A DNA stretch of 64,000 bases from a virus (IMGVR_UViG_3300029849_000006:1-64000); one strand, 5' to 3'; positions 1-21,214 are shown, counted from the first letter of the stretch. Made by a program: numbers and translations. The notes: generated by a model from the letters alone, not told the origin.

Positions 1-2
1 GG

Positions 3-100
3 CTTATTGTATTTTTTTTAAAAATTAGGTATGCTTGATTATCAATTAGTTAGGTTTTATAATACCCGTATTTTCGGACATACTTATTGTATTTTTTTTA
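3..100 (+). repeat. 18-bp direct repeat CTTATTGTATTTTTTTTA (copies at 3-20 and 83-100)
   Basis: Two identical copies read directly in the AT-rich left end, 80 bp apart. Confidence 0.5.
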
Positions 101-272
101 TTTTATGTGGTGGTTTTTATTAGTAGCTGACTTTTATTTTCTGTCGGTTGGTATTCGCTCTATGTTGGAGTACGGACCGGATCAGTATAATATCGTAATG
201 GTTTTTTGCTTTTCTTTGTTGGCTTTGATTATAGGCTTAAATATCTATCTTGATAGGAGGAGCAGGCGGTAG
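87..272 (+). CDS. small hydrophobic ORF (61 aa), doubtful
   Basis: ORF track; very hydrophobic, low-complexity; begins inside the second copy of the direct repeat. Confidence 0.2.
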   Translation: MYFFYFMWWFLLVADFYFLSVGIRSMLEYGPDQYNIVMVFCFSLLALIIGLNIYLDRRSRR

Positions 273-454
273 GGCGTGGGCTGAAGTCTCTCTATTCTCT
301 CTATGGAATGATATTATCTCCAAATCCCCCATATTCCATGCCAGAGTATAAGCTTGTAGCGCTCTCCGTATGCCTGTGGCGAGGCTGATAGCGCAGGTTC
401 TATGCGGAAAGCCGGAGGATTAGCCGGAGTTGGAGAGGGGGAGAGGGAGGGCAC

Positions 455-932
455 TTCCTTTCAACAAAATTCAACTTCCTTTCAACAAAATTCAACTTCC
501 TTTCAACAAAATTCAACTTCCTTTCAACAAAATTCAACTTCCTTCCAACAAAATTCAACTTCCTTCCAACAAAATTCAACAGATCAGCGTTTTAAAACAG
601 CGTTATGTAGTTCCTTTCAACAAAATTCAACTTCCTTTCAACAAAATTCAACTTCCTTTCAACAAAATTCAACTTCCTTCCAACAAAATTCAACTTCCTT
701 CCAACAAAATTCAACAGATCAGCGTTTTAAAACAGCGTTATGTAGTTCCTTTCAACAAAATTCAACTTCCTTTCAACAAAATTCAACTTCCTTTCAACAA
801 AATTCAACTTCCTTTCAACAAAATTCAACAGATCAGCGTTTTAAAACAGCATTATGTAGGGTTTTCCCACAAAATTAAGACATACAGTGCTTTAAAACGG
901 CATAATGTGAGTTTATTCTACAAAATTCAATA
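455..932. repeat. iteron-like tandem array: 15 copies of the 21-bp unit TTCCTTTCAACAAAATTCAAC (variant TTCCTTCC...) in blocks of 6, 5 and 4
   Basis: Units counted directly: 455-580, 611-715, 746-829. Each block is followed by a 30-bp spacer AGATCAGCGTTTTAAAACAGCGTTATGTAG (581-610, 716-745, 830-859) containing the palindrome GTTTTAAAAC. A degenerate fourth block lies at 860-932. Confidence 0.9.
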
Positions 933-1004
933 GGTTGAGAGTTGAAAACTATATTCTATAGATTAGTAGTAATCGGAATATATAACAATTAAAACATAAA
1001 CAAC

Positions 1005-1265
1005 ATGAACGTATATGCCTTTGCGCCTGACTTAGATTTGAGTAAGGAGGGAGGAGGTTCTATTTTTGGGGTGAAAGGAATAGAAGGCAGTGATGGTATA
1101 GTATATGCTAAGGTAGTTAGCTGTGTAGACGTTAAGGATTACGGTTGTGAGAGGTGTATTTTTTATGATTGTTATAAGGATAAATGTTTGTTATCGCGTA
1201 GTGTTAGTTGTGTAGATGGAGACCGGATTTGTAGGTACGAACAGGCTGCCATAGAGGGGGAGTAG
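1005..1265 (+). CDS. small Cys-rich hypothetical protein (86 aa)
   Basis: ORF track; first ORF after the repeat array; nine Cys residues. Confidence 0.4.
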   Translation: MNVYAFAPDLDLSKEGGGSIFGVKGIEGSDGIVYAKVVSCVDVKDYGCERCIFYDCYKDKCLLSRSVSCVDGDRICRYEQAAIEGE

Positions 1266-1372
1266 GCGGCGCCTTGGGCTAAGGCCTGCGGTTGTAGGTG
1301 GAACGTAGGTCGGAGCAGAGCCGGAACAGTTTGTTGTGGAACTAAAAAAAATAAAAAGGAGGAGATAGCGAT

Positions 1373-1453
1373 ATGAAAAAGGCATTTAAGATATTTTCTA
1401 TTATGTTTGTCATAGAAATAGTGTTGATAGCTATTTTAGATGCTATGGCGTAA
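1373..1453 (+). CDS. 26-aa hydrophobic peptide ORF (MKKAFKIFSIMFVIEIVLIAILDAMA)
   Basis: Strong SD AAGGAGGAG 6-9 nt upstream of ATG at 1373; translated by hand; TAA at 1451-1453. Confidence 0.3.
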   Translation: MKKAFKIFSIMFVIEIVLIAILDAMA

Positions 1454-1490
1454 GTGAGAAAAATTTCTTCATTAATTTTCTTATGCTTTA

Positions 1491-1580
1491 GACAGAGTGC
1501 TCCCGTCTGCGAAGATCGGAGCACTTGCTTTATGGGATTCATGGTGCGGTAGGTCGGTTCGATTCCGGCGATCTCACACA
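1491..1580 (+). ncRNA. tRNA-like element A: 8-bp hairpin AGTGCTCC/GGAGCACT (loop CGTCTGCGAAGATC), then canonical T-arm GTCGG-TTCGATT-CCGGC and acceptor-like tail GATCTCAC
   Basis: The GGTTCGATTCC T-loop signature and the preceding variable-loop-like GGTAG are read from the sequence. No 5-bp/7-nt anticodon arm or matching 5' acceptor strand could be folded by eye. Confidence 0.4.
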
Positions 1581-1606
1581 ACATTAAAAACAAAGGAGGA
1601 AAGAAA

Positions 1607-1948
1607 ATGAAAGATGGTATTACATTACATCCAGAACACGGATTGAATCCGTCTATAGAAGTTTGCATGATATGTGGCGAAGAGATGGGGATTGCTTTAT
1701 TAGGGAATAACATCAAGGGGCAGGCGCCGCATCATATATGCACGGGCGAAGTATGTGACAATTGCAAAAAGATAATAGACGAAGGAGGTTGTTTTATTAT
1801 CGAAGTCGAAGATGGCTCAGATCAAAAGAATCCGTATCGCACAGGAAGATATTGTGCGATAAAGAAAGAGGCAGCAAAGAAAATGTTTGGACAGGAGCAT
1901 AATATTGTGTACATGGAAAAGTCTGCATACAGTCTAATAATACTATAA
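1607..1948 (+). CDS. hypothetical Cys-rich protein (113 aa)
   Basis: ORF track; SD AAAGGAGGAAAG upstream; CxxC...CxxC pairs. Confidence 0.5.
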   Translation: MKDGITLHPEHGLNPSIEVCMICGEEMGIALLGNNIKGQAPHHICTGEVCDNCKKIIDEGGCFIIEVEDGSDQKNPYRTGRYCAIKKEAAKKMFGQEHNIVYMEKSAYSLIIL

Positions 1949-1963
1949 AAAACGAAGAGAGAT

Positions 1964-2278
1964 ATGTTTACAAAAGAAGAGCGATTATTCATATGGAAAA
2001 AGGTATATGAGATGATTGATAGGCAAGAGGATGGGGAATACATATGTGTTGCGTTAAGAAATGTAGTGTTTATGTATTTCAAAAAACATAAAAATATCTA
2101 TGGGTTTCGTTCAGACGAAATGGTGAGAATATATTTCCCGGAATTGGAGGAGAAGATAAGTATGGCCACAGAACCAGAGGAAACAAGAACGTTTTATGGG
2201 TGGTTTGGTTGCATTAGTCCAGAAACGAAGGAGGTAAGGCTGAATATTGTGAAAGATATTATAAAAGAGTTAGAATAG
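1964..2278 (+). CDS. hypothetical protein (104 aa)
   Basis: ORF track; tight spacing in the + strand block. Confidence 0.45.
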   Translation: MFTKEERLFIWKKVYEMIDRQEDGEYICVALRNVVFMYFKKHKNIYGFRSDEMVRIYFPELEEKISMATEPEETRTFYGWFGCISPETKEVRLNIVKDIIKELE

Positions 2279-2324
2279 TATTTTTGTTAATCTATTTTAT
2301 TCATCAAATTAAGTTTTGGGTTTT

Positions 2325-2435
2325 GGCATGTCGGTTCGTGAGAATAGGCATGTCTATTTGTGTATCATAGAGGGATGGCGCGGCGTGCCGGTATGTATGT
2401 GCCGGTCCTGGTTCGATTCTGGGCATCTCACAAAC
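2325..2435 (+). ncRNA. tRNA-like element B: T-arm CCTGG-TTCGATT-CTGGG and acceptor-like tail CATCTCAC, preceded by duplicated GGCATGTC and GTGCCGG motifs
   Basis: The 3' 35 nt are near-identical to element A (GGTTCGATTC[CT]GG[CG][GC]ATCTCACA). GTGAGA at 2338-2343 can pair with TCTCAC at 2426-2431, but no full cloverleaf was found. Confidence 0.4.
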
Positions 2436-2684
2436 AATAAAACATAATTATATGGAAGTAATAACATTCGGTCCGAACATGGATTTGTCTTCTAAAAAAA
2501 ACAGGAGATGTATTTAGATTAAAATTGTATGGTATAGAGTATGATGTCAAAGTAGTTGGTGACGACGAAGATCCTCTTATGTTCTGCAAAGATTGTATAT
2601 TTTTTAACAACTCCGAACGGTGTTCACTCTCAGAATCGCAAGACTGGTGCTTAAAAAAGCAAGTTGTTTACTGTAAAATAAGAC

Positions 2685-2876
2685 ATGATGAGGGAATTTA
2701 ATGCGAAAGACGCCAATTTCTTATGGCGTCAAATTGGTAGGATTGATGGGGTGATAGAAACTCTGAACCGTACCGAAGGAGAGATGCCGGAAATTATAGC
2801 CGGAGTGCTAAAAAGAATAAGAGACGATATAGATAAGTTTGTAGACAATAAAACGAAAGATTATGAGAATATATAG
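2685..2876 (+). CDS. hypothetical protein (63 aa)
   Basis: ORF track. Confidence 0.35.
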   Translation: MMREFNAKDANFLWRQIGRIDGVIETLNRTEGEMPEIIAGVLKRIRDDIDKFVDNKTKDYENI

Positions 2877-3168
2877 GAATGATATTATAAAGGCGTCAGC
2901 GATAAGCACAGACGACGACAGAGGTTTGTTGTTGTGTTCAATAACAGATTCAGGCTTTACGTCTATAGCGAGCGTGATATCGGCTGTTAAAGACAAGTTA
3001 CCAAACAAAGATCATAAGAAGATGGTGTTTGAAATCTTGAATGATACGAAAAAGAGTACGGACGATATAACAATTGTGGGACAAAAGTATTGTAATAAAG
3101 AGCAGAAAACAATATGTTTATGTAATGTTAGTTTTTTTATTTTTATTGAAAAGAGCGCCGGCCTGTGA
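2863..3168 (+). CDS. hypothetical protein (101 aa)
   Basis: ORF track. Confidence 0.35.
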   Translation: MRIYRNDIIKASAISTDDDRGLLLCSITDSGFTSIASVISAVKDKLPNKDHKKMVFEILNDTKKSTDDITIVGQKYCNKEQKTICLCNVSFFIFIEKSAGL

Positions 3169-14766: not shown

Positions 14767-15233
14767 TGATAAGAAGTCATGGCTTATGCCAGGCTTGCAG
14801 GAGCAAAGAGTTGACTCCGAAGAAAAAAAACAGAATTACATCCATTAAAAACAGCAGCAAGAAGAAAAAGTTAGAGAACCCGGATTTATCCGGGTTTTTT
14901 CGTCTTATGTTGGAGGAGTTGAGTACTATTCGAATGTCTATGACTGGTAAGGCTATTCATTTTCCTACAGTATGTAACGTCTGTCACATACTTCCGAAAA
15001 GGATATATAAGTCGGTTGCTACTTGCAGGGATAATATAGTTTTCCTTCATGAATCGGAGCATACGGTATTCGACATGTATCTTGACCGGATGGAATTTGA
15101 TAAACTTGAAACAGAATTTCCTTTTGTATGGAAGTATGCGGTAAAGAAGGTACTGGATATGGAAAGCAGGGGAATGATCAAAGAAAGAGGTAGGTTGATT
15201 ATTGAAATAATTGACAGATATAACCCCAAATAG
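14712..15233 (+). CDS. Zn-ribbon protein (CERCGRK...CQACRSK), possibly HNH-like
   Basis: ORF track; CxxC x2 at the N-terminus; downstream CNVCH...HESEH is weakly HNH-like. Confidence 0.45.
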   Translation: MESKEKKLYVCERCGRKVMIRSHGLCQACRSKELTPKKKNRITSIKNSSKKKKLENPDLSGFFRLMLEELSTIRMSMTGKAIHFPTVCNVCHILPKRIYKSVATCRDNIVFLHESEHTVFDMYLDRMEFDKLETEFPFVWKYAVKKVLDMESRGMIKERGRLIIEIIDRYNPK

Positions 15234-15580
15234 TATTAACCTGATATAATTCTATTATAAAAGTTTAATACATCTCTTTCAGAGATCGGGTTATTAGCCT
15301 AAGCCTTGAAACAAAGGCTACGTTATTTGAGAATAGATAGTTACCTACGGATGTTTACCCAAGTTCGTAGCTCTAAGAATGGTGGTTAAACAGGAGTAGT
15401 GTATTTGACGAAACAGTGTTGCCATTATATAAAACCTCTTATAACATTGGCGATGGGTACTAACAGGATGAAATATTCCTGACTTATCCCTAACGGGATT
15501 TACATCTACCTCGGAGACCGAAAGGTCTCCGAGGGGATGTATTAAAACAGATGAATAGCTTTAAATATATTTAATAGAAT
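15234..15580 (+). ncRNA. ~350-nt ORF-free region dense in short hairpins (candidate structured ncRNA or UTR)
   Basis: Hairpins read directly at 15272-15286, 15303-15318, 15345-15370, 15486-15499 and 15509-15534. No ORF of 20 aa or more on either strand. Strand unproven, assumed + as the flanking genes. Confidence 0.35.
15509..15534 (+). other. perfect 11-bp hairpin CCTCGGAGACC-GAAA-GGTCTCCGAGG with a GNRA (GAAA) tetraloop; no U-tract follows
   Basis: Read directly from the sequence. Confidence 0.8.
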
Positions 15581-15763
15581 ATGGGATATGAAAAAAAATA
15601 TAAGGTTACAATAGAAGCTGACGATGAAATTATTTTCATTGCCAACGTAAAAAGAGGAGAGAGTGAGAGAGAAATTGATTTTGAGGGAGCAGCCGCAGAT
15701 ATGGATGAGACTGTAACTGTGTTGTATTATGTTAAAGAGGAATTAATTGAGAAATTGCGATGA
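15581..15763 (+). CDS. hypothetical protein (60 aa)
   Basis: ORF track; 4-nt overlap with the next gene. Confidence 0.3.
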   Translation: MGYEKKYKVTIEADDEIIFIANVKRGESEREIDFEGAAADMDETVTVLYYVKEELIEKLR

Positions 15764-17079
15764 TAGAACAGAAAATAAAAATATTGACAGATTTAGGGTT
15801 TGTACCTATGGTGGAGGGAAAAGGAAATACGTTGTTTAGAATGAACGATGTTGTGATGTCGGTGTCAGATCCTAATCAAACACCGGAGCAGTTGAAGAAG
15901 GAGGTTATGTCTTTAATAAAGAACAGAGACATAGCGGAAAGAGGTGGACAGGTTCCAGTAGTTGAAGAGCCGGCGCCTGAGCCAGAGCAGGCCCAGAAGG
16001 AGGAACCGGAAGCTCCGGCGGAGGAAGCCGCTCCTAACCCCGGAGAAGAGGATTCGAATCCGTTTACAGAAAATCAGGAAACGTTAGAACCGTTTTATAT
16101 CTGTGATGAGTTAAAGAAGATCGAGACTCCCAAATTCGTAAGATTGACATTAGACGGTAATCGTTTTTATGTAAGAAAGATGGACGATGGGACAGCCAAG
16201 ATATACGCCTCGGTAACAACCATGATCAGAGACGGATTCGTAGATGACAAGACGGCTCTTCAAGAATGGAGACAGGAGATGAGGATGATTGGTCGCAATC
16301 CGGAAGAAGTATCAGAATATGATGCAGATAAAGGAACGATCATGCACTACCTATACGGATTGTACTTGACAGGTAGAGATATGGTCTTAAATCGAAGTTT
16401 TATAGTTAAGACAGTGCAAGAAGGCAAGCTTAAAATATCAAAAAAGAATCTTGACAAATTCTTTGGTAGCATAGATGATCTTGATGATATGATTGTCAGA
16501 GTTATGAAGTTTGCTAAGTTTTGTTCGGAGTATAAGGTTAAGCCGATGATGATTGAAAGAATATTGTCATTAGAAGATTATTTGGTAGCTACGCCGATAG
16601 ATGCGATGGTTAAAATGACATTCAAATACAAAGAAGAAGGTTATTTTGGAGCCGTGTATCAAAGGGCTACGGGGCAGTTCAAAAAAGGCGATCCGAAGAA
16701 GGAAGTGAGAGAAGTGGAGAAAGAAGAGATTGTTATCTTAGATTTTAAATCAGGTGACATACGAAATGAACATGCTTTTCAATTGGAGGCTGAAAGGAGA
16801 ATGGTTAAAAACTGGTACGGAATTGATGCACGTATTATGAATTTTTCTCCAAAAAGCACGAACAGTAAAGGTTATACGCTAAAAGAATGGTCTGATAAGA
16901 ATGCTGCTATGGAGAAAGCGGACTGTGTGTTCCAACAAGGGATGTTGAATCATATCAGAAAAGATAAGAGGTTCAAAGTGAGAAAAGGAGTGCTGAATAT
17001 CAATAAGCCGTACAATGAAGAGGATCATACGGTCGTGTATGATATTGCAGAGGAAATGTCTAAAAGATTCATAATATGA
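15760..17079 (+). CDS. PD-(D/E)xK (RecB-family)-like nuclease domain protein with Pro/Glu-rich linker (439 aa)
   Basis: Motif VILDFKSGD (hhDhK[ST]G, nuclease motif III) in the translation; assignment tentative. Confidence 0.45.
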   Translation: MIEQKIKILTDLGFVPMVEGKGNTLFRMNDVVMSVSDPNQTPEQLKKEVMSLIKNRDIAERGGQVPVVEEPAPEPEQAQKEEPEAPAEEAAPNPGEEDSNPFTENQETLEPFYICDELKKIETPKFVRLTLDGNRFYVRKMDDGTAKIYASVTTMIRDGFVDDKTALQEWRQEMRMIGRNPEEVSEYDADKGTIMHYLYGLYLTGRDMVLNRSFIVKTVQEGKLKISKKNLDKFFGSIDDLDDMIVRVMKFAKFCSEYKVKPMMIERILSLEDYLVATPIDAMVKMTFKYKEEGYFGAVYQRATGQFKKGDPKKEVREVEKEEIVILDFKSGDIRNEHAFQLEAERRMVKNWYGIDARIMNFSPKSTNSKGYTLKEWSDKNAAMEKADCVFQQGMLNHIRKDKRFKVRKGVLNINKPYNEEDHTVVYDIAEEMSKRFII

Positions 17080-17309: not shown

Positions 17310-17656
17310 AAAGAAAAATTAGAAGAACAGGAGAGATAATAGACGTAATCACTTTCAGTAGCTCAACTACAAGAAGCGACCATGACAGAATACAGTTCTA
17401 TGGTGATAATGGGAATGTGATAAGTGAGAGTTTAAATTTTTATCTCGATACCCTTCCTGTAAATGACGAAAACAAAGATGTAGACTGGGAGCAACGTAGA
17501 TTCGATCTTATCAAGGCTTATTCTATTGAGTTTGTTAAAGCACAAAATAGAAAAGGTGAAATAGATTGCGGAGTATATGTACCAGATGTGGTGTCATGGT
17601 CTATAACTATAGCAGATAGAATCATAGAGGCGATGAGAGGAGTTAAAAATGCTTGA
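17306..17656 (+). CDS. hypothetical protein (116 aa)
   Basis: ORF track. Confidence 0.4.
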   Translation: MKRKIRRTGEIIDVITFSSSTTRSDHDRIQFYGDNGNVISESLNFYLDTLPVNDENKDVDWEQRRFDLIKAYSIEFVKAQNRKGEIDCGVYVPDVVSWSITIADRIIEAMRGVKNA

Positions 17657-18686
17657 TTTTAGAAAATACGAAAACGTACCTCGGTTTCAACTTGACCGCA
17701 GGCCGGGCAGGAGCCGACTGAAGCTAACCTGCCCAGCTTGCGGGAAAAGCCGGTGCCTCACTCCTTATATTGATGTGGCAACAGGTCAGGTTGTTGGCAA
17801 CGAGTTCGGAAGATGCGATCATGAACGGACTTGCGGTTACGATAAACGACCTACCGGTAAGGATGTAGGTGACAAAGATCTTTGGATTTCAGGAAACAAG
17901 TGTATAAGAGCTTATCGTCCTCCTGTAAATCCTGACGTTGTAAATTACATACCTTTTAGCGAGTTTGAGAGGACTGTGGTTCCAGATGATAGAAATACTG
18001 TATTTAGATTTTTATCGTCTCTGTGGGGGAAAGAAAGGGTGTCTGATGTGTTCAGAAGGTACCATGTCGGAACAATGGATTTATGGGGATGGAAAGGGTG
18101 TTGTATATTCTGGCAGATAGACAAAGATTTTGTATGTAGAACCGGCAAGATCATGGACTTTTATATAAAGACCGACAGCCAGGGGAATGAGATTGATGTA
18201 AAAAGAGTGAAGGAAAAAGACGGTGACAATGAGCGGCCTCATGTTATGTTTTATCACTCGTTGCATGCAAGAGACTTCTTGTTTAGGCAATGCCTGTTCG
18301 GAGAGCATCTTCTAAGCCAGTATCCGGATAAGGTGGTTAATCTGGTGGAATCAGAAAAGACGGCTATTATATGCGCTGTGAATAAACCAGATGAGTTATT
18401 TGTAGCTACCGGTGGGTTGCAGAATCTAAGGCCGGAAGTGATAGATGTTTTAAAAGATAGAAAGACTGTAGCTTTTCCGGACAAAGGACAAGCATTTGAG
18501 ACATGGAGTAAAAAGATAGATGGGATGATGATGAAGTCAAGGATAAAAGTATCGGACTATCTTCAAAATGTTGAAAATGTAGGAGACGGAGATGATGTGG
18601 CAGATTTGATAATTAGTAACAAGGTAAAAGAAAAATATTATGAGCCTGGATGTTTATATCAAGAACAAAAAGAAAGAAGATCGTGA
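17649..18686 (+). CDS. DNA primase-like protein (N-terminal Zn-ribbon CPACG...CDHERTC plus TOPRIM-like region)
   Basis: Zn-binding motif in the translation; downstream LVESEKTAI ... VAFPDKG resembles the TOPRIM E / DxD pattern. Confidence 0.5.
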   Translation: MLDFRKYENVPRFQLDRRPGRSRLKLTCPACGKSRCLTPYIDVATGQVVGNEFGRCDHERTCGYDKRPTGKDVGDKDLWISGNKCIRAYRPPVNPDVVNYIPFSEFERTVVPDDRNTVFRFLSSLWGKERVSDVFRRYHVGTMDLWGWKGCCIFWQIDKDFVCRTGKIMDFYIKTDSQGNEIDVKRVKEKDGDNERPHVMFYHSLHARDFLFRQCLFGEHLLSQYPDKVVNLVESEKTAIICAVNKPDELFVATGGLQNLRPEVIDVLKDRKTVAFPDKGQAFETWSKKIDGMMMKSRIKVSDYLQNVENVGDGDDVADLIISNKVKEKYYEPGCLYQEQKERRS

Positions 18687-19833: not shown

Positions 19834-20112
19834 ATGGGCAGATCAACAGAGTACTACAGGACTCATCCCGAAGCCAGGAAGAAAAAGGCTAAAAAGGACA
19901 AGGAGATAAATGCCAGACCGGAACAGAAAGCCAAACGCCGAGAGCTTGGTCGTAAAAACTACGAAACGGACAAGAAGAAGGGTAAGGGCTGGAGAAAAGG
20001 AAAGGATTGTTCTCATACCAAGAACGGTCTTAGGTATAAATCAGTAAAAGCTAATAGGGGATCCAAATCGGATACGAAAGGTGACAAAAATGCAAGAGGA
20101 TCTGAAAAATAA
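19834..20112 (+). CDS. highly basic Lys/Arg-rich small protein (92 aa), possible nucleic-acid binder
   Basis: Composition of the translation. Confidence 0.4.
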   Translation: MGRSTEYYRTHPEARKKKAKKDKEINARPEQKAKRRELGRKNYETDKKKGKGWRKGKDCSHTKNGLRYKSVKANRGSKSDTKGDKNARGSEK

Positions 20113-21214
20113 AATAGATATAAGAAGGATATTCAAGACCTCTAAACAGGTTATGGAAGAGGCGTATGAGAATATCTTGAAATACAGGCGGGGAGAGCTT
20201 ATCCCCGCTAAAACCGGATACGATTATATTGATGAGGCTTTGCTTGGAGGTATTTTTCCTCAGCATGCTATTGCCATAGGAGCCCGGCCATCTGTGGGTA
20301 AATCGTATGTGGCCCAAAAGATATTGGAAAATGTGATGAATCCGATGATCAACCCGCAAGCAGAAGATTATTTTCTTGTCAATTGCGAGTTCGAAATGAA
20401 TCCTCAAGATCTTCTTCTTCGTAGAATGAGCCAGGATATGAAAAAGCGGGCTCCTGAAATATTAAGAAGGCAAGATTCTAATACAGTGGAAGAGATGAGG
20501 ATGTTTGAAATCCTTCAAGGTGAAATCAGGAATAATATAATATACATCGATGCTCCGTGTACGGTAAAAGAGTTTGAGGCGGCTGTGTATCATATAGCTA
20601 CCAAACACAAAGACAAACGTCTTATAATATTTAAAGTCGATCATATTGCTTTGATAAAAAGAATGGGGTTAGATCCTAAGTCGGCTATAGATGATTTGGT
20701 GGCGGTTATGAACGAGGCTAAATTAGTATATAAAAACATATTTTTCCTCATCATATCCCAATTCAACAGAGAGATAGAAGGAAGGATAAAAAGCCCACAA
20801 GAACAGCCTCCGCGTCTTTCTGATTTTTACCAGTCTGATACGCTGGGTCAGTTATGTACGTTAATGATAGGTTTGCACAATCCTCGTAGGTACGGGCTGG
20901 ATAAGTATATGATATTTGGGAAAGATTGGTATCAGACTCTTGATAGGTTTAAAACTGAAAACAAAACATCATTCAGGACAGCCGGACTGGTGTTTCATCA
21001 TATACTGAAGGTAAGGCAAGTTAGTATGGAAGAGCTTACTAATACAATCCACCCAGAGATACTGCCGGGACATGGATGGATGTACGGGGAGGGCGGGACG
21101 AAGTTCGTGAACCCCAACCAGCCGCCGACGCCGCCCAAGCTCTATACTGTGGAAGACGTTACGGACAATCAGGAACAAGAACAAGAGACAAAAGAAGAAC
21201 AGTCATTGTATTAA
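20081..21214 (+). CDS. DnaB-like replicative helicase (RecA-fold ATPase domain)
   Basis: Walker A AIGARPSVGKSYVAQ, Walker-B-like LIIFKVDHIALI and overall DnaB C-terminal-domain layout in the translation; lies 1.4 kb downstream of the primase-like gene. Confidence 0.6.
   Translation: MTKMQEDLKNKIDIRRIFKTSKQVMEEAYENILKYRRGELIPAKTGYDYIDEALLGGIFPQHAIAIGARPSVGKSYVAQKILENVMNPMINPQAEDYFLVNCEFEMNPQDLLLRRMSQDMKKRAPEILRRQDSNTVEEMRMFEILQGEIRNNIIYIDAPCTVKEFEAAVYHIATKHKDKRLIIFKVDHIALIKRMGLDPKSAIDDLVAVMNEAKLVYKNIFFLIISQFNREIEGRIKSPQEQPPRLSDFYQSDTLGQLCTLMIGLHNPRRYGLDKYMIFGKDWYQTLDRFKTENKTSFRTAGLVFHHILKVRQVSMEELTNTIHPEILPGHGWMYGEGGTKFVNPNQPPTPPKLYTVEDVTDNQEQEQETKEEQSLY

What the first reader, a model, noticed from the sequence alone, without database searches (positions are those of the whole stretch)
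455..932. Iteron-like higher-order tandem array at the head of the + strand gene block
Fifteen copies of a 21-bp unit (TTCCTTTCAACAAAATTCAAC) are arranged as blocks of 6, 5 and 4. Each block is punctuated by the same 30-bp spacer carrying the 10-bp palindrome GTTTTAAAAC, and a degenerate fourth block follows. This repeats-plus-palindrome architecture is what replication origins or partition/regulator binding arrays look like. It sits just upstream of the first + strand genes and next to a GC-rich island at 272-455. The two long ORFs the track calls here are translations of the repeat and are not genes.
Basis: seen in the sequence. Interest (0 to 1): 0.6.

Follow-up and report, generated by a model that had tools for sequence, protein, structure and literature searches.

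The report
Hypervariable repeat array in gut phage
The repeat array is real, but its conserved unit is a 51-base two-part module found in 1-9 copies at the same spot in all ~170 related epsilon crAss-like gut phage contigs fetched; the fifteen 21-base copies are a recent slippage expansion of half of that module, and the array looks like a protein-binding control region, not a demonstrated replication origin.

Summary
Observation confirmed. There are fifteen 21-mers in blocks of 6, 5 and 4, each block followed by a 30-bp element, and then two degenerate units.

The window comes from an epsilon crAss-like phage, 94% identical to crAssE-Sib. Comparison with about 170 related contigs changes the picture:
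- The conserved unit is a 51-bp module. It consists of block 1 (CCAACAAAATTCA), a variable linker, and block 2 (CAGnGyTTTAAAACAGyATwnTGTAG).
- The module is present in 1-9 tandem copies and always ends 44 nt before the same small gene (1005-1265).
- The 21-mer runs are recurrent, lineage-specific amplifications of block 1. They occur in 37% of distinct arrays, with periods of 15-31 bp and a mode of 21.
- Genomes with identical flanks differ in copy number, and assemblies often break at this site.

The position-specific conservation argues for a protein-binding cis element. The origin or partition reading finds no support:
- GC skew shows no inflection at the array.
- No Rep or Par gene and no DnaA boxes were found.
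- There are no matches in plasmids or bacterial genomes.

My best guess, at 0.4, is the transcriptional control region of the downstream, probably early, operon. A replication origin stays a live rival at 0.22. The array is undescribed but of a known kind, so interest is moderate.

The parts
432..451 (+). 20-nt homopurine run containing a perfect 15-nt mirror repeat (GGAGAGGGGGAGAGG). It ends the conserved GC-rich island, and the array always starts right after ...GGGCAC.
   Evidence: Sequence; TRF 432-447; the fixed left boundary GGGCAC in all printed arrays of relatives.
455..580 (+). Block A: 6 x 21-mer (4 TTCCTTTC-type and 2 TTCCTTCC-type). Each is an amplified copy of the upstream half (block 1) of module 1.
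560..610 (+). Module 1 (51 bp): the last 21-mer plus the 30-bp element AGATCAGCGTTTTAAAACAGCGTTATGTAG (581-610).
611..715 (+). Block B: 5 x 21-mer (3 T-type and 2 C-type). Together with 716-745 it is a 135-bp higher-order copy of block A minus one unit.
695..745 (+). Module 2 (51 bp); its 30-bp element is at 716-745.
746..829 (+). Block C: 4 x perfect 21-mer.
809..859 (+). Module 3 (51 bp); its 30-bp element at 830-859 is the CAGCATT variant.
860..911 (+). Module 4, diverged: GGTTTTCCCACAAAATTAAGAC + ATACAGTGCTTTAAAACGGCATAATGTGAG.
   Evidence: 3 mismatches; TRF period 51.
912..961 (+). Module 5, the most diverged: TTTATTCTACAAAATTCAATAGG + TTGAGAGTTGAAAACTATATTCTATAG. It still keeps ACAAAATTCA, TTGAAAAC and ATTCTATAG.
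   Evidence: (the a=63 class in relatives).
962..1004 (+). 43-nt AT-rich stretch (GC about 0.2) between the last module and the ATG, with no Shine-Dalgarno sequence.
1005..1265 (+). Gene for a conserved 86-aa Cys-rich (CxxC...C...C) protein. The array always sits directly upstream of it. No family match and no usable structure model.
272..454 (.). GC-rich non-coding island, 79-99% identical across 57 relatives. It forms the left border of the array and shows no RNA-fold signal.

Best explanation
The array is the non-coding control region of the operon that begins with gene 1005-1265. It is built from tandem 51-bp protein-binding modules.

Each module has two conserved sites separated by a free linker:
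- Block 1 is YCCAACAAAATTCA, an A-tract with two YCAAC motifs one helical turn apart.
- Block 2 is CAGnGyTTTAAAACAGyATwnTGTAG. It contains the palindrome GTTTTAAAAC and the quasi-palindrome CATnATG one turn apart, and a -10-like yATwnT.

Proposed mechanism (inferred):
- The modules act as repeated promoter/operator units firing rightward into the small, probably early, genes.
- The polymerase could be the phage's virion RNA polymerase or the host polymerase assisted by a phage or host factor bound at block 1.
- Module number and the number of extra block 1 sites set the strength of early expression.

The fifteen 21-mers are not the functional unit. They are replication-slippage amplifications of block 1 inside three successive modules, followed by a 135-bp higher-order duplication.

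Shown: the anatomy, the position-specific conservation, uniqueness in the genome, the fixed junctions, hypervariable copy number, recurrent block 1 amplification, and predicted intrinsic curvature of the modules.
Inferred: that a protein binds, that the output is transcription, and that the downstream genes are early genes.
For: - The same module array lies directly upstream of the gp86 homologue in every related contig examined: 176 loci and 118 distinct arrays with 1-9 modules, with gp86 identity down to 68%.
- Among 88 distinct modules, information content is 1.2-1.8 bits at block positions outside the search pattern (-25 to -13, -5/-4/-2, +15 to +19). It is 0.1-0.9 bits in the linkers. Even the most diverged proximal module keeps both blocks.
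- All modules share the orientation of the gene. The last one ends 44 nt before the ATG, and the left edge is fixed at GGGCAC.
- The motif occurs nowhere else in the 64-kb window or in the 151-kb genome of crAssE-Sib.
- Block 1 alone has been amplified repeatedly in different lineages from their own local sequence. This is seen in 38 of 104 distinct arrays, with at least 12 unit types and different breakpoints that mostly converge on 21±1 bp. Block 2 is rarely duplicated without block 1.
- Module arrays are predicted to be intrinsically bent. The window's 809-961 scores 0.75 against a genome minimum of 0.815, and 30 of 62 pure module arrays fall below the 5th percentile of the background.
- The published PhageTerm start of crAssE-Sib lies about 0.65 kb upstream (PMC11054128). 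In crAss001 the early operon sits at a physical genome end (PMC8375218). The downstream genes are small and unannotated, as early genes usually are.
- Weak sigma70-like pairs fall inside modules 4 and 5: AAGACA-18-CATAAT and TTGAGA-18-TAGATT.
Against: - There is no transcription data.
- The modules match neither the Bacteroidetes -33/-7 promoter consensus on the + strand nor an N4-type hairpin promoter.
- The sigma70-like matches are 9 of 12 and promoter-like hits are not significantly enriched (14 found against 7.6±3.0 expected). The -35-equivalent region is the least conserved part of the module, while the 'spacer' TTTAAAAC is the most conserved.
- A 51-bp spacing would make bacterial-type polymerase footprints overlap.
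- No terminator was detected between the upstream ORF 87-272 and the array, so the array may simply be transcribed through.
- crAss001 has no comparable array upstream of its early operon. For phi14:2, no common motif was found upstream of virion-polymerase transcripts (bioRxiv 10.1101/2020.03.07.982082).
- No contig end supports the PhageTerm terminus.
- No binding protein was identified, and the gp86 model is unusable (pLDDT 45).
Confidence: 0.4

Rival explanations
1. Replication origin. The modules, and the amplified block 1 sites, would be iterons bound by an unrecognised phage initiator. That protein bends and melts the DNA and loads the phage DnaB-like helicase and primase, which recruit the host polymerase, since epsilon crAss-like phages encode no DNA polymerase.
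For: - Contiguous 21-bp direct repeats at two helical turns, a palindrome in each module and phased A-tracts with predicted bending resemble lambda, R6K or P1-type iteron origins.
- The array is a unique site in the genome.
- It lies in the largest non-coding stretch of the window, on the arm that carries primase (17649-18686) and the DnaB-like helicase (20081-21214).
- No iteron-like structure was found near those replication genes.
- Epsilon phages lack their own DNA polymerase (PMC7886860), so they need a defined origin.
Against: - GC skew shows no inflection at the array; the extremes are 18 and 40 kb away. This test is confounded by gene orientation.
- There are no DnaA boxes in 1-1300. 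The only AT-rich stretch is 43 nt.
- No Rep, O-like or winged-helix initiator was recognised. The protein annotated 'DNA replication factor' hits an exonuclease PHROG.
- Module and 21-mer copy numbers differ between genomes with 100% identical flanks, which is unusual for copy-controlling iterons.
- A second tandem array 2.7 kb upstream is an equally good candidate.
Confidence: 0.22
2. The array is a largely neutral, slippage-prone variable-number tandem repeat. It persists because repeats beget repeats, and any function resides only in the flanks or in the single proximal module.
For: - Nine of 10 genome pairs with at least 98.5% identical flanks differ in array architecture.
- Periods of 15-31 bp occur.
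- Pairwise identity in the array is 65-89%, against 93-100% in the flanks.
- Twenty-four of 80 contigs end inside the array.
- TCAAC and AC microhomologies sit at the unit borders.
Against: - Conservation is position-specific: blocks are kept and linkers vary across 88 distinct modules, and both blocks survive in the oldest, most diverged copies.
- At least one module, and usually two or more, is kept in every genome.
- The junctions are fixed.
- Amplification is biased toward block 1, with a preferred period of about 21 bp despite different breakpoints.
Confidence: 0.13
3. RNA-level element. The region would be transcribed from the promoter-like site at 35-63 through ORF 87-272. The G-free, unstructured repeat RNA (UUCCUUUCAACAAAAUUCAAC)n would then act as a long leader or as a sponge for an RNA-binding protein or ribosomal protein S1.
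For: - The 21-mers are G-free on the + strand, and their variable part stays pyrimidine-rich across unit types.
- The modules fold no better than shuffled sequence, so they are unstructured.
- No terminator was detected between 63 and the array.
- Highly expressed non-coding intergenic RNAs are reported at the early end of the crAss-like phage phi14:2.
Against: - Block 2 is not G-free and contains DNA palindromes.
- There is no covariation or fold signal.
- There is no expression data and no candidate binding protein.
- Most relatives carry only 2-3 copies, too few for a sponge.
Confidence: 0.1
4. Terminus-associated or packaging repeats. The array, together with the second array 2.7 kb upstream, would flank the physical genome end in the way SRL and SRR flank the T7 terminal repeat. 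It would serve terminase recognition, concatemer processing, or a pause in DNA ejection (the T7 comparison is from my own knowledge).
For: - The PhageTerm-predicted start of crAssE-Sib lies between the two arrays, 0.65 and about 2.1 kb away.
- Three contigs of 145-152 kb are bounded by the two arrays and lack the 2.7 kb between them.
Against: - None of 37 nearby contig ends coincides with the PhageTerm site. The breaks are explained by the repeats themselves.
- 650 bp is far for a terminase small-subunit site.
- The terminase genes are about 20 kb away.
- The two arrays share no sequence.
Confidence: 0.07

Closest known systems
Iteron arrays of theta-replicating plasmids and phages (R6K gamma ori 7 x 22 bp; P1 oriR/incA 19 bp; lambda ori 4 iterons with A-tract bends). 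From my own knowledge.
   Same: Contiguous head-to-tail direct repeats of about 21 bp at two helical turns. Dyad elements inside the longer unit, phased A-tracts and bending. A single site per genome.
   Different: No cognate initiator gene, no DnaA boxes, no clear unwinding element, no skew signal. Copy number is hypervariable between near-identical genomes. The conserved unit is 51 bp, not 21 bp.
Tandem early promoters near the leading genome end (T7 A1/A2/A3 at about 500-750 bp from the left end, upstream of gene 0.3). From my own knowledge.
   Same: Several same-orientation units a few hundred bp from a predicted genome end, directly upstream of small unannotated genes. Unique cluster in the genome.
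   Different: The modules do not match host promoter consensus and are only 51 bp apart. The terminus rests on one published PhageTerm call. No transcription data.
Non-coding control regions of polyomaviruses (SV40 21-bp and 72-bp repeats; rearranged BKV/JCV NCCRs). Analogy only, from my own knowledge.
   Same: A viral control region in which tandem duplications of binding-site blocks arise recurrently and differ between otherwise near-identical strains.
   Different: Eukaryotic virus with known factors. In those viruses origin and promoter functions are demonstrated; here neither is.
N4 virion-RNA-polymerase early promoters (hairpin promoters)
   Same: The phage group carries a virion RNA polymerase (PMC11054128). 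The cluster of repeated elements lies upstream of presumed early genes.
   Different: No stable hairpin forms on either strand (z between 0.2 and 0.95). The N4 promoters are dispersed rather than tandem.

Membership tests
Iteron-type replication origin | Tandem direct repeats of about 17-22 bp in helical phase | tested here: met
   15 x 21 bp in the window. In relatives, however, periods of 15-31 bp also occur, and 63% of arrays have no such run.
Iteron-type replication origin | Cognate initiator (Rep or O-like) encoded next to or near the repeats | tested here: inconclusive
   The ten flanking proteins have no informative Pfam or PHROG match. Larger + strand ORFs give only primase, a DnaB-like helicase, an exonuclease-like protein and a zinc-finger protein. 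An unrecognised initiator cannot be excluded.
Iteron-type replication origin | Adjacent AT-rich unwinding element and/or DnaA boxes | tested here: not met
   No DnaA box with up to 1 mismatch in 1-1300. The only AT-rich stretch is 43 nt at 962-1004.
Iteron-type replication origin | Replication-related compositional switch (GC-skew extremum) at the site | tested here: not met
   The skew extremes of crAssE-Sib are at 17,716 and 110,658, while the array is at about 150.5 kb. The window profile shows no sign change there. This test is confounded by gene orientation.
Iteron-type replication origin | Supports autonomous replication or exerts incompatibility | not testable with these tools
   Requires cloning and a host; no epsilon crAss-like phage is in culture.
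Partition centromere (parS/parC/sopC-type) | ParA/ParB (or ParM/ParR) genes adjacent, and plasmid-like maintenance | tested here: not met
   No Par-like match among neighbouring proteins. No plasmid similarity. In 596 Gb of bacterial genomes the motif gives only chance singletons plus two short MAG contigs.
Host-type promoter (Bacteroidetes -33 TTTG / -7 TAnnTTTG; or sigma70 -35/-10) | Consensus hexamers or octamers at correct spacing on the gene strand | tested here: not met
   No TTTG-N17-23-TAnnTTTG in 273-1004. The best sigma70-like pairs are 9 of 12 and are not enriched over shuffles. A canonical Bacteroidetes promoter does exist in the other intergenic region 2.7 kb upstream, so the host type is recognisable when present.
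N4-type virion-RNAP hairpin promoter | Stable 5-7 bp stem with a 3-nt loop hairpin in the template strand | tested here: not met
   DNA folding of the modules on both strands gives -1.7 to -1.9 kcal/mol, with z between +0.2 and +0.95.
crAss-like virion-RNAP early promoter | Sequence recognised by the virion polymerase; rifampicin-resistant transcript 5' ends | not testable with these tools
   No consensus is known. The phi14:2 study found no common motif.
CRISPR-repeat mimic / mini-array | The repeat matches a host CRISPR repeat; unique spacers between repeats | tested here: not met
   The segments between the 30-mers are themselves repeats. The block 2 pattern is not found in arrays in bacterial genomes.
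Neutral VNTR | Copy number varies freely and no position-specific constraint exists within units | tested here: not met
   The first half is met. The second is not: blocks are conserved while linkers vary.

The most novel reading that the evidence does not exclude
The 51-bp modules would be the promoters recognised by the virion-packaged RNA polymerase of epsilon crAss-like phages. Block 2 would be the core promoter and block 1 an upstream recruitment site. This would be the first sequence-defined early promoter for any crAss-like virion polymerase. Copy-number hypervariation would then act as a rapid tuning knob for early gene dosage.
Probability: 0.15. Interest if true: 0.7.

Novelty: new member of a known kind. 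Interest (0 to 1): 0.4.

Why it matters
Epsilon crAss-like phages are abundant in the human gut, making up 13-18% of crAss-like reads in one survey (PMC7886860). None is in culture, and no promoter, origin or packaging site is known for them.

This array is the one unique, conserved, multi-copy cis element on their early/replication arm. That makes it the obvious first bait for finding the protein that binds it, and the first fragment to test for promoter or origin activity.

It has two practical consequences:
- It is a main reason assemblies of these genomes break: 24 of 80 contigs end inside it.
- It is a strain-level length marker, because genomes with identical flanks differ in array length.

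If it proved to be a virion-polymerase promoter, it would fill a gap left open by the phi14:2 study.

Tried and rejected
- Rfam on 1-3000 and on the homologous 3.2 kb of L003 found nothing relevant. RNA folding of the GC island gave z = +1.2.
- ARAGORN found no tRNA.
- Pfam and PHROGs on ten flanking proteins and ten larger ORFs found no DNA-binding, Rep or Par candidate. A PDB sequence search of the 439-aa 'replication factor' found nothing.
- The AlphaFold model of gp86 from 26 homologues reached pLDDT 45, so I did not run a fold search.
- I looked for other iteron-like repeats near the primase and helicase genes and found none.
- A scan for Bacteroidetes -7 boxes showed no enrichment and none in the array on the gene strand. 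Block 1 on the minus strand reads GAATTTTG or TAATTTTG, which is -7-like, but the 21-bp spacing gives a -33/-7 spacer of 13. I rejected this reading.
- A CRISPR-mimic idea was rejected after the bacterial-genome scan.
- A search for inverted-repeat or invertible-segment relations between the two arrays found only weak 70-74% matches.
- crAss001 was checked as an analogue and has no array upstream of its early operon.
- A protein search with the primase against phage records did not retrieve cultured epsilon-group relatives.
- Literature searches found no description of this array.
- The curvature model uses wedge parameters recalled from memory (Bolshoy/Trifonov type), so the curvature results are indicative only.

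Full report
**The observation**

Reading 1-1800, TRF and a pattern search confirm fifteen copies of TTCCTTTCAACAAAATTCAAC at 455-829. Eleven are perfect and four carry T7C; none is expected by chance. They form blocks of 6, 5 and 4.

Each block is followed by a 30-bp element, AGATCAGCGTTTTAAAACAGC[G/A]TTATGTAG, at 581-610, 716-745 and 830-859. Two progressively degenerate units follow, at 860-911 and 912-961. TRF also sees a 135-bp higher-order period at 99% match.

Blocks A and B share the internal order 'T-type units, then two C-type units'. They are therefore one duplication that differs by a single unit.

The two long ORFs across the array are translations of a G-free unit of 21 nt, a multiple of three. 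They are not genes.

**What genome this is**

The first 6 kb are 94% identical to phage crAssE-Sib (OR575929, 151 kb, human gut). That phage is described as an epsilon crAss-like phage (PMC11054128).

In that record the co-oriented early/replication arm runs from 17.4 kb through the record junction to 110.9 kb. The array is therefore not at the head of a gene block. It lies about 18 kb into the arm.

The authors set the record start from a PhageTerm prediction. That point is about 185 bp upstream of window position 1, which is about 0.65 kb upstream of the array.

**The conserved unit is 51 bp, not 21 bp**

In crAssE-Sib the homologous spot has no 21-mer run. It has three 51-bp units, each a 21-mer-like half plus the 30-mer.

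I fetched 80 IMG/VR loci through the downstream 86-aa gene and further loci through a module pattern scan that matched 97 stretches. All carry the same architecture directly upstream of the gp86 homologue, including genomes whose gp86 is only 68-73% identical.

Across 176 loci there are 118 distinct arrays. Module number ranges from 1 to 9, with a mode of 2-3.

The arrays always begin right after ...GGGCAC, at the end of a conserved GC-rich island. The last module ends 44 nt before the ATG.

Aligning 88 distinct modules gives this consensus:

- Block 1: YCCAACAAAATTCA
- A free linker of about 6 nt
- Block 2: CAGnGyTTTAAAACAGyATwnTGTAG

Information content is 1.2-1.8 bits at block positions that were not part of the search pattern. 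It is 0.1-0.9 bits in the linkers. Even the most diverged proximal module keeps both blocks.

The motif is found nowhere else in the window or in the complete crAssE-Sib genome. In viral contigs it occurs as one cluster per contig, apart from one contig cut within the array so that it appears at both ends.

**The 21-mers are recurrent slippage products**

Of 104 distinct arrays, 38 (37%) carry runs of block 1 without block 2. These usually sit at the 5' edge and are rarely internal, as they are here (also L107 and L162).

At least a dozen unit types occur, each derived from the local first-module sequence of its own lineage. Periods are 15, 17, 19, 20, 21, 22 and 27-31 bp. Units with different breakpoints mostly converge on 21±1 bp. 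All keep CCA-ACAAAATTCA.

The closest relative (L003, gp86 98% identical) has a 4,1,1 arrangement of the C-type unit. The window has 6,5,4, and its array is the longest among those fetched.

Among genome pairs with at least 98.5% identical flanks, 9 of 10 differ in array architecture. For example, three genomes with 100% identical flanks carry arrays that differ in module and block 1 copy number.

Against otherwise 93-100% identical flanks, the array is the least conserved stretch of the locus, at 65-89%.

Of the 80 contigs, 24 end inside the array. Another 11 end inside a second tandem array about 2.7 kb upstream, made of 27-33-bp units (GTTTATGTGATGAGGGATATGAAAGAT).

**Tests of the origin and partition reading**

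- Cumulative GC skew of crAssE-Sib has its minimum at 17,716 and maximum at 110,658. These are the strand-switch points, and there is no inflection at the array (window profile). This test is confounded by transcription direction.
- No DnaA box lies in 1-1300, and the only AT-rich stretch is 43 nt.
- No Rep, O or Par-like protein was recognised among ten flanking and ten larger proteins. The arm encodes a primase (17649-18686), a DnaB-like helicase (20081-21214) and an exonuclease-like 439-aa protein.
- No iteron-like repeats lie near those genes, so the array is not out-competed by another candidate inside the window. The upstream array outside the window is an equally good candidate.
- Nothing similar exists in plasmids.
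- The block 2 pattern in 596 Gb of bacterial genomes gives only scattered single hits and two short MAG contigs.

**Tests of the promoter reading**

- The array has no Bacteroidetes -33/-7 promoter on the gene strand. A canonical one (TTTG-N18-TATATTTG) is easily seen in the other intergenic region.
- Sigma70-like pairs inside modules 4 and 5 score 9 of 12, and promoter-like hits are not enriched overall.
- The conserved yATwnT resembles a -10 hexamer (A2, T3 and T6 conserved). However, the -35-equivalent region is the least conserved part of the module.
- No hairpin of the N4 type forms on either strand.
- For the crAss-like phage phi14:2, no common motif was found upstream of virion-polymerase transcripts, so there is no consensus to test against.
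- In crAss001 the early operon lies at a physical genome end. Its upstream region has no tandem array.

**Physical properties**

I used a wedge model whose parameters I recalled from memory, so the results are indicative only. In that model the 21-mer runs are straight, with an end-to-end/contour ratio of 0.975.

The module part is bent. For 809-961 the ratio is 0.751, against a genome minimum of 0.815 for windows of equal length. Across relatives, 30 of 62 pure module arrays fall below the 5th percentile of the genome background.

The A-tracts of block 1 and block 2 are 21-22 and 29-30 bp apart, roughly in helical phase.

**Conclusion**

The array is a real, conserved, genome-unique and hypervariable cis element. 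Its conservation pattern is that of protein-binding sites.

I commit, at 0.4, to the transcriptional control region of the gene-1005 operon, made of tandem promoter/operator modules. Block 1 multiplicity would act as a tunable upstream site.

A replication origin remains a serious rival at 0.22. Neutral VNTR (0.13), RNA-level element (0.10) and terminus/packaging repeats (0.07) follow.

No paper in the searchable library describes the array.

Noticed in passing
window 15220-15464 (+): Rfam gathering-level hit to HEARO RNA (RF02033, the IscB-associated omega-RNA family), 95.9 bits, E = 2.3e-18. It lies in a 347-bp non-coding gap upstream of the 439-aa ORF 15760-17079. That ORF gave no Pfam match of any kind, so no HNH or RuvC domain. 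It may be an orphan or degraded OMEGA element.
   Followed up: no
window 1452-1606: Non-coding stretch, 89-100% identical in 80 relatives, with a strong hairpin (AGTGCTCC...GGAGCACT) and a tRNA T-arm-like GGTCGGTTCGATTCCGGCGATC. ARAGORN and Rfam find nothing; fold z = -2.0. The close relative crAssE-Sib encodes a Ro60/TROVE protein, so this is a candidate Y-RNA-like (tRNA-mimic) gene. A similar T-arm-like element is at L003 1630-1665.
   Followed up: partly
window 1262-1340: GC-rich non-coding segment immediately after the stop of gene 1005-1265. It is 97-100% identical in 81 relatives, among the most conserved stretches of the locus. It begins with GTAGGCGGCGCCTTGGGCTAAGG, which resembles GGCGGTAGGGCGTGGGCTGAAG at 265-286 after the stop of ORF 87-272.
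   Followed up: no
window 35-63: The best sigma70-like promoter of the region (TTGATT-17-TATAAT, 10 of 12) contains the perfect 11-bp palindrome TTGATTATCAA. TTGATWATCAA occurs 4 times in the 151-kb crAssE-Sib genome, all on the early/replication arm. One copy is in the upstream intergenic region, where relatives carry several near-copies. It looks like a dispersed operator for a dimeric regulator.
   Followed up: partly
outside the window, about 2.1-2.9 kb upstream of position 1 (L057 720-1330; L003 1-560): A second complex intergenic region. It begins after an intrinsic terminator and holds a hypervariable tandem array of 27-33-bp units (2-10 copies, C-free on the + strand). After that come a GC-rich stretch, the TGATWATCA palindromes and a canonical Bacteroidetes promoter (TTTG-N18-TATATTTG). 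Assemblies break here too, and three contigs of 145-152 kb run from one array to the other without the 2.7 kb between them.
   Followed up: partly
window 1374-1451: A 26-aa very hydrophobic ORF (MKKAFKIFSIMFVIEIVLIAILDAMA) with a strong Shine-Dalgarno sequence (AAAGGAGGAG). It is sandwiched between the two ultra-conserved non-coding segments and is reminiscent of a type I toxin-like peptide. ORF 87-272 also looks like a small two-helix membrane protein.
   Followed up: no
window 432-451: A 20-nt homopurine run with a perfect 15-nt mirror repeat (GGAGAGGGGGAGAGG), so it has triplex and G-quadruplex potential. It lies directly before the G-free array, and a similar GGGAGAGAGGGGG run follows the upstream array in relatives.
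   Followed up: no
gp86 homologues (alignment A1): Several homologues read past the window's stop position (...AAIEGGVGGALG), so the highly conserved segment after the TAG is translated in some genomes. This may be relevant to stop-codon reassignment, which is reported for some crAss-like phages.
   Followed up: no
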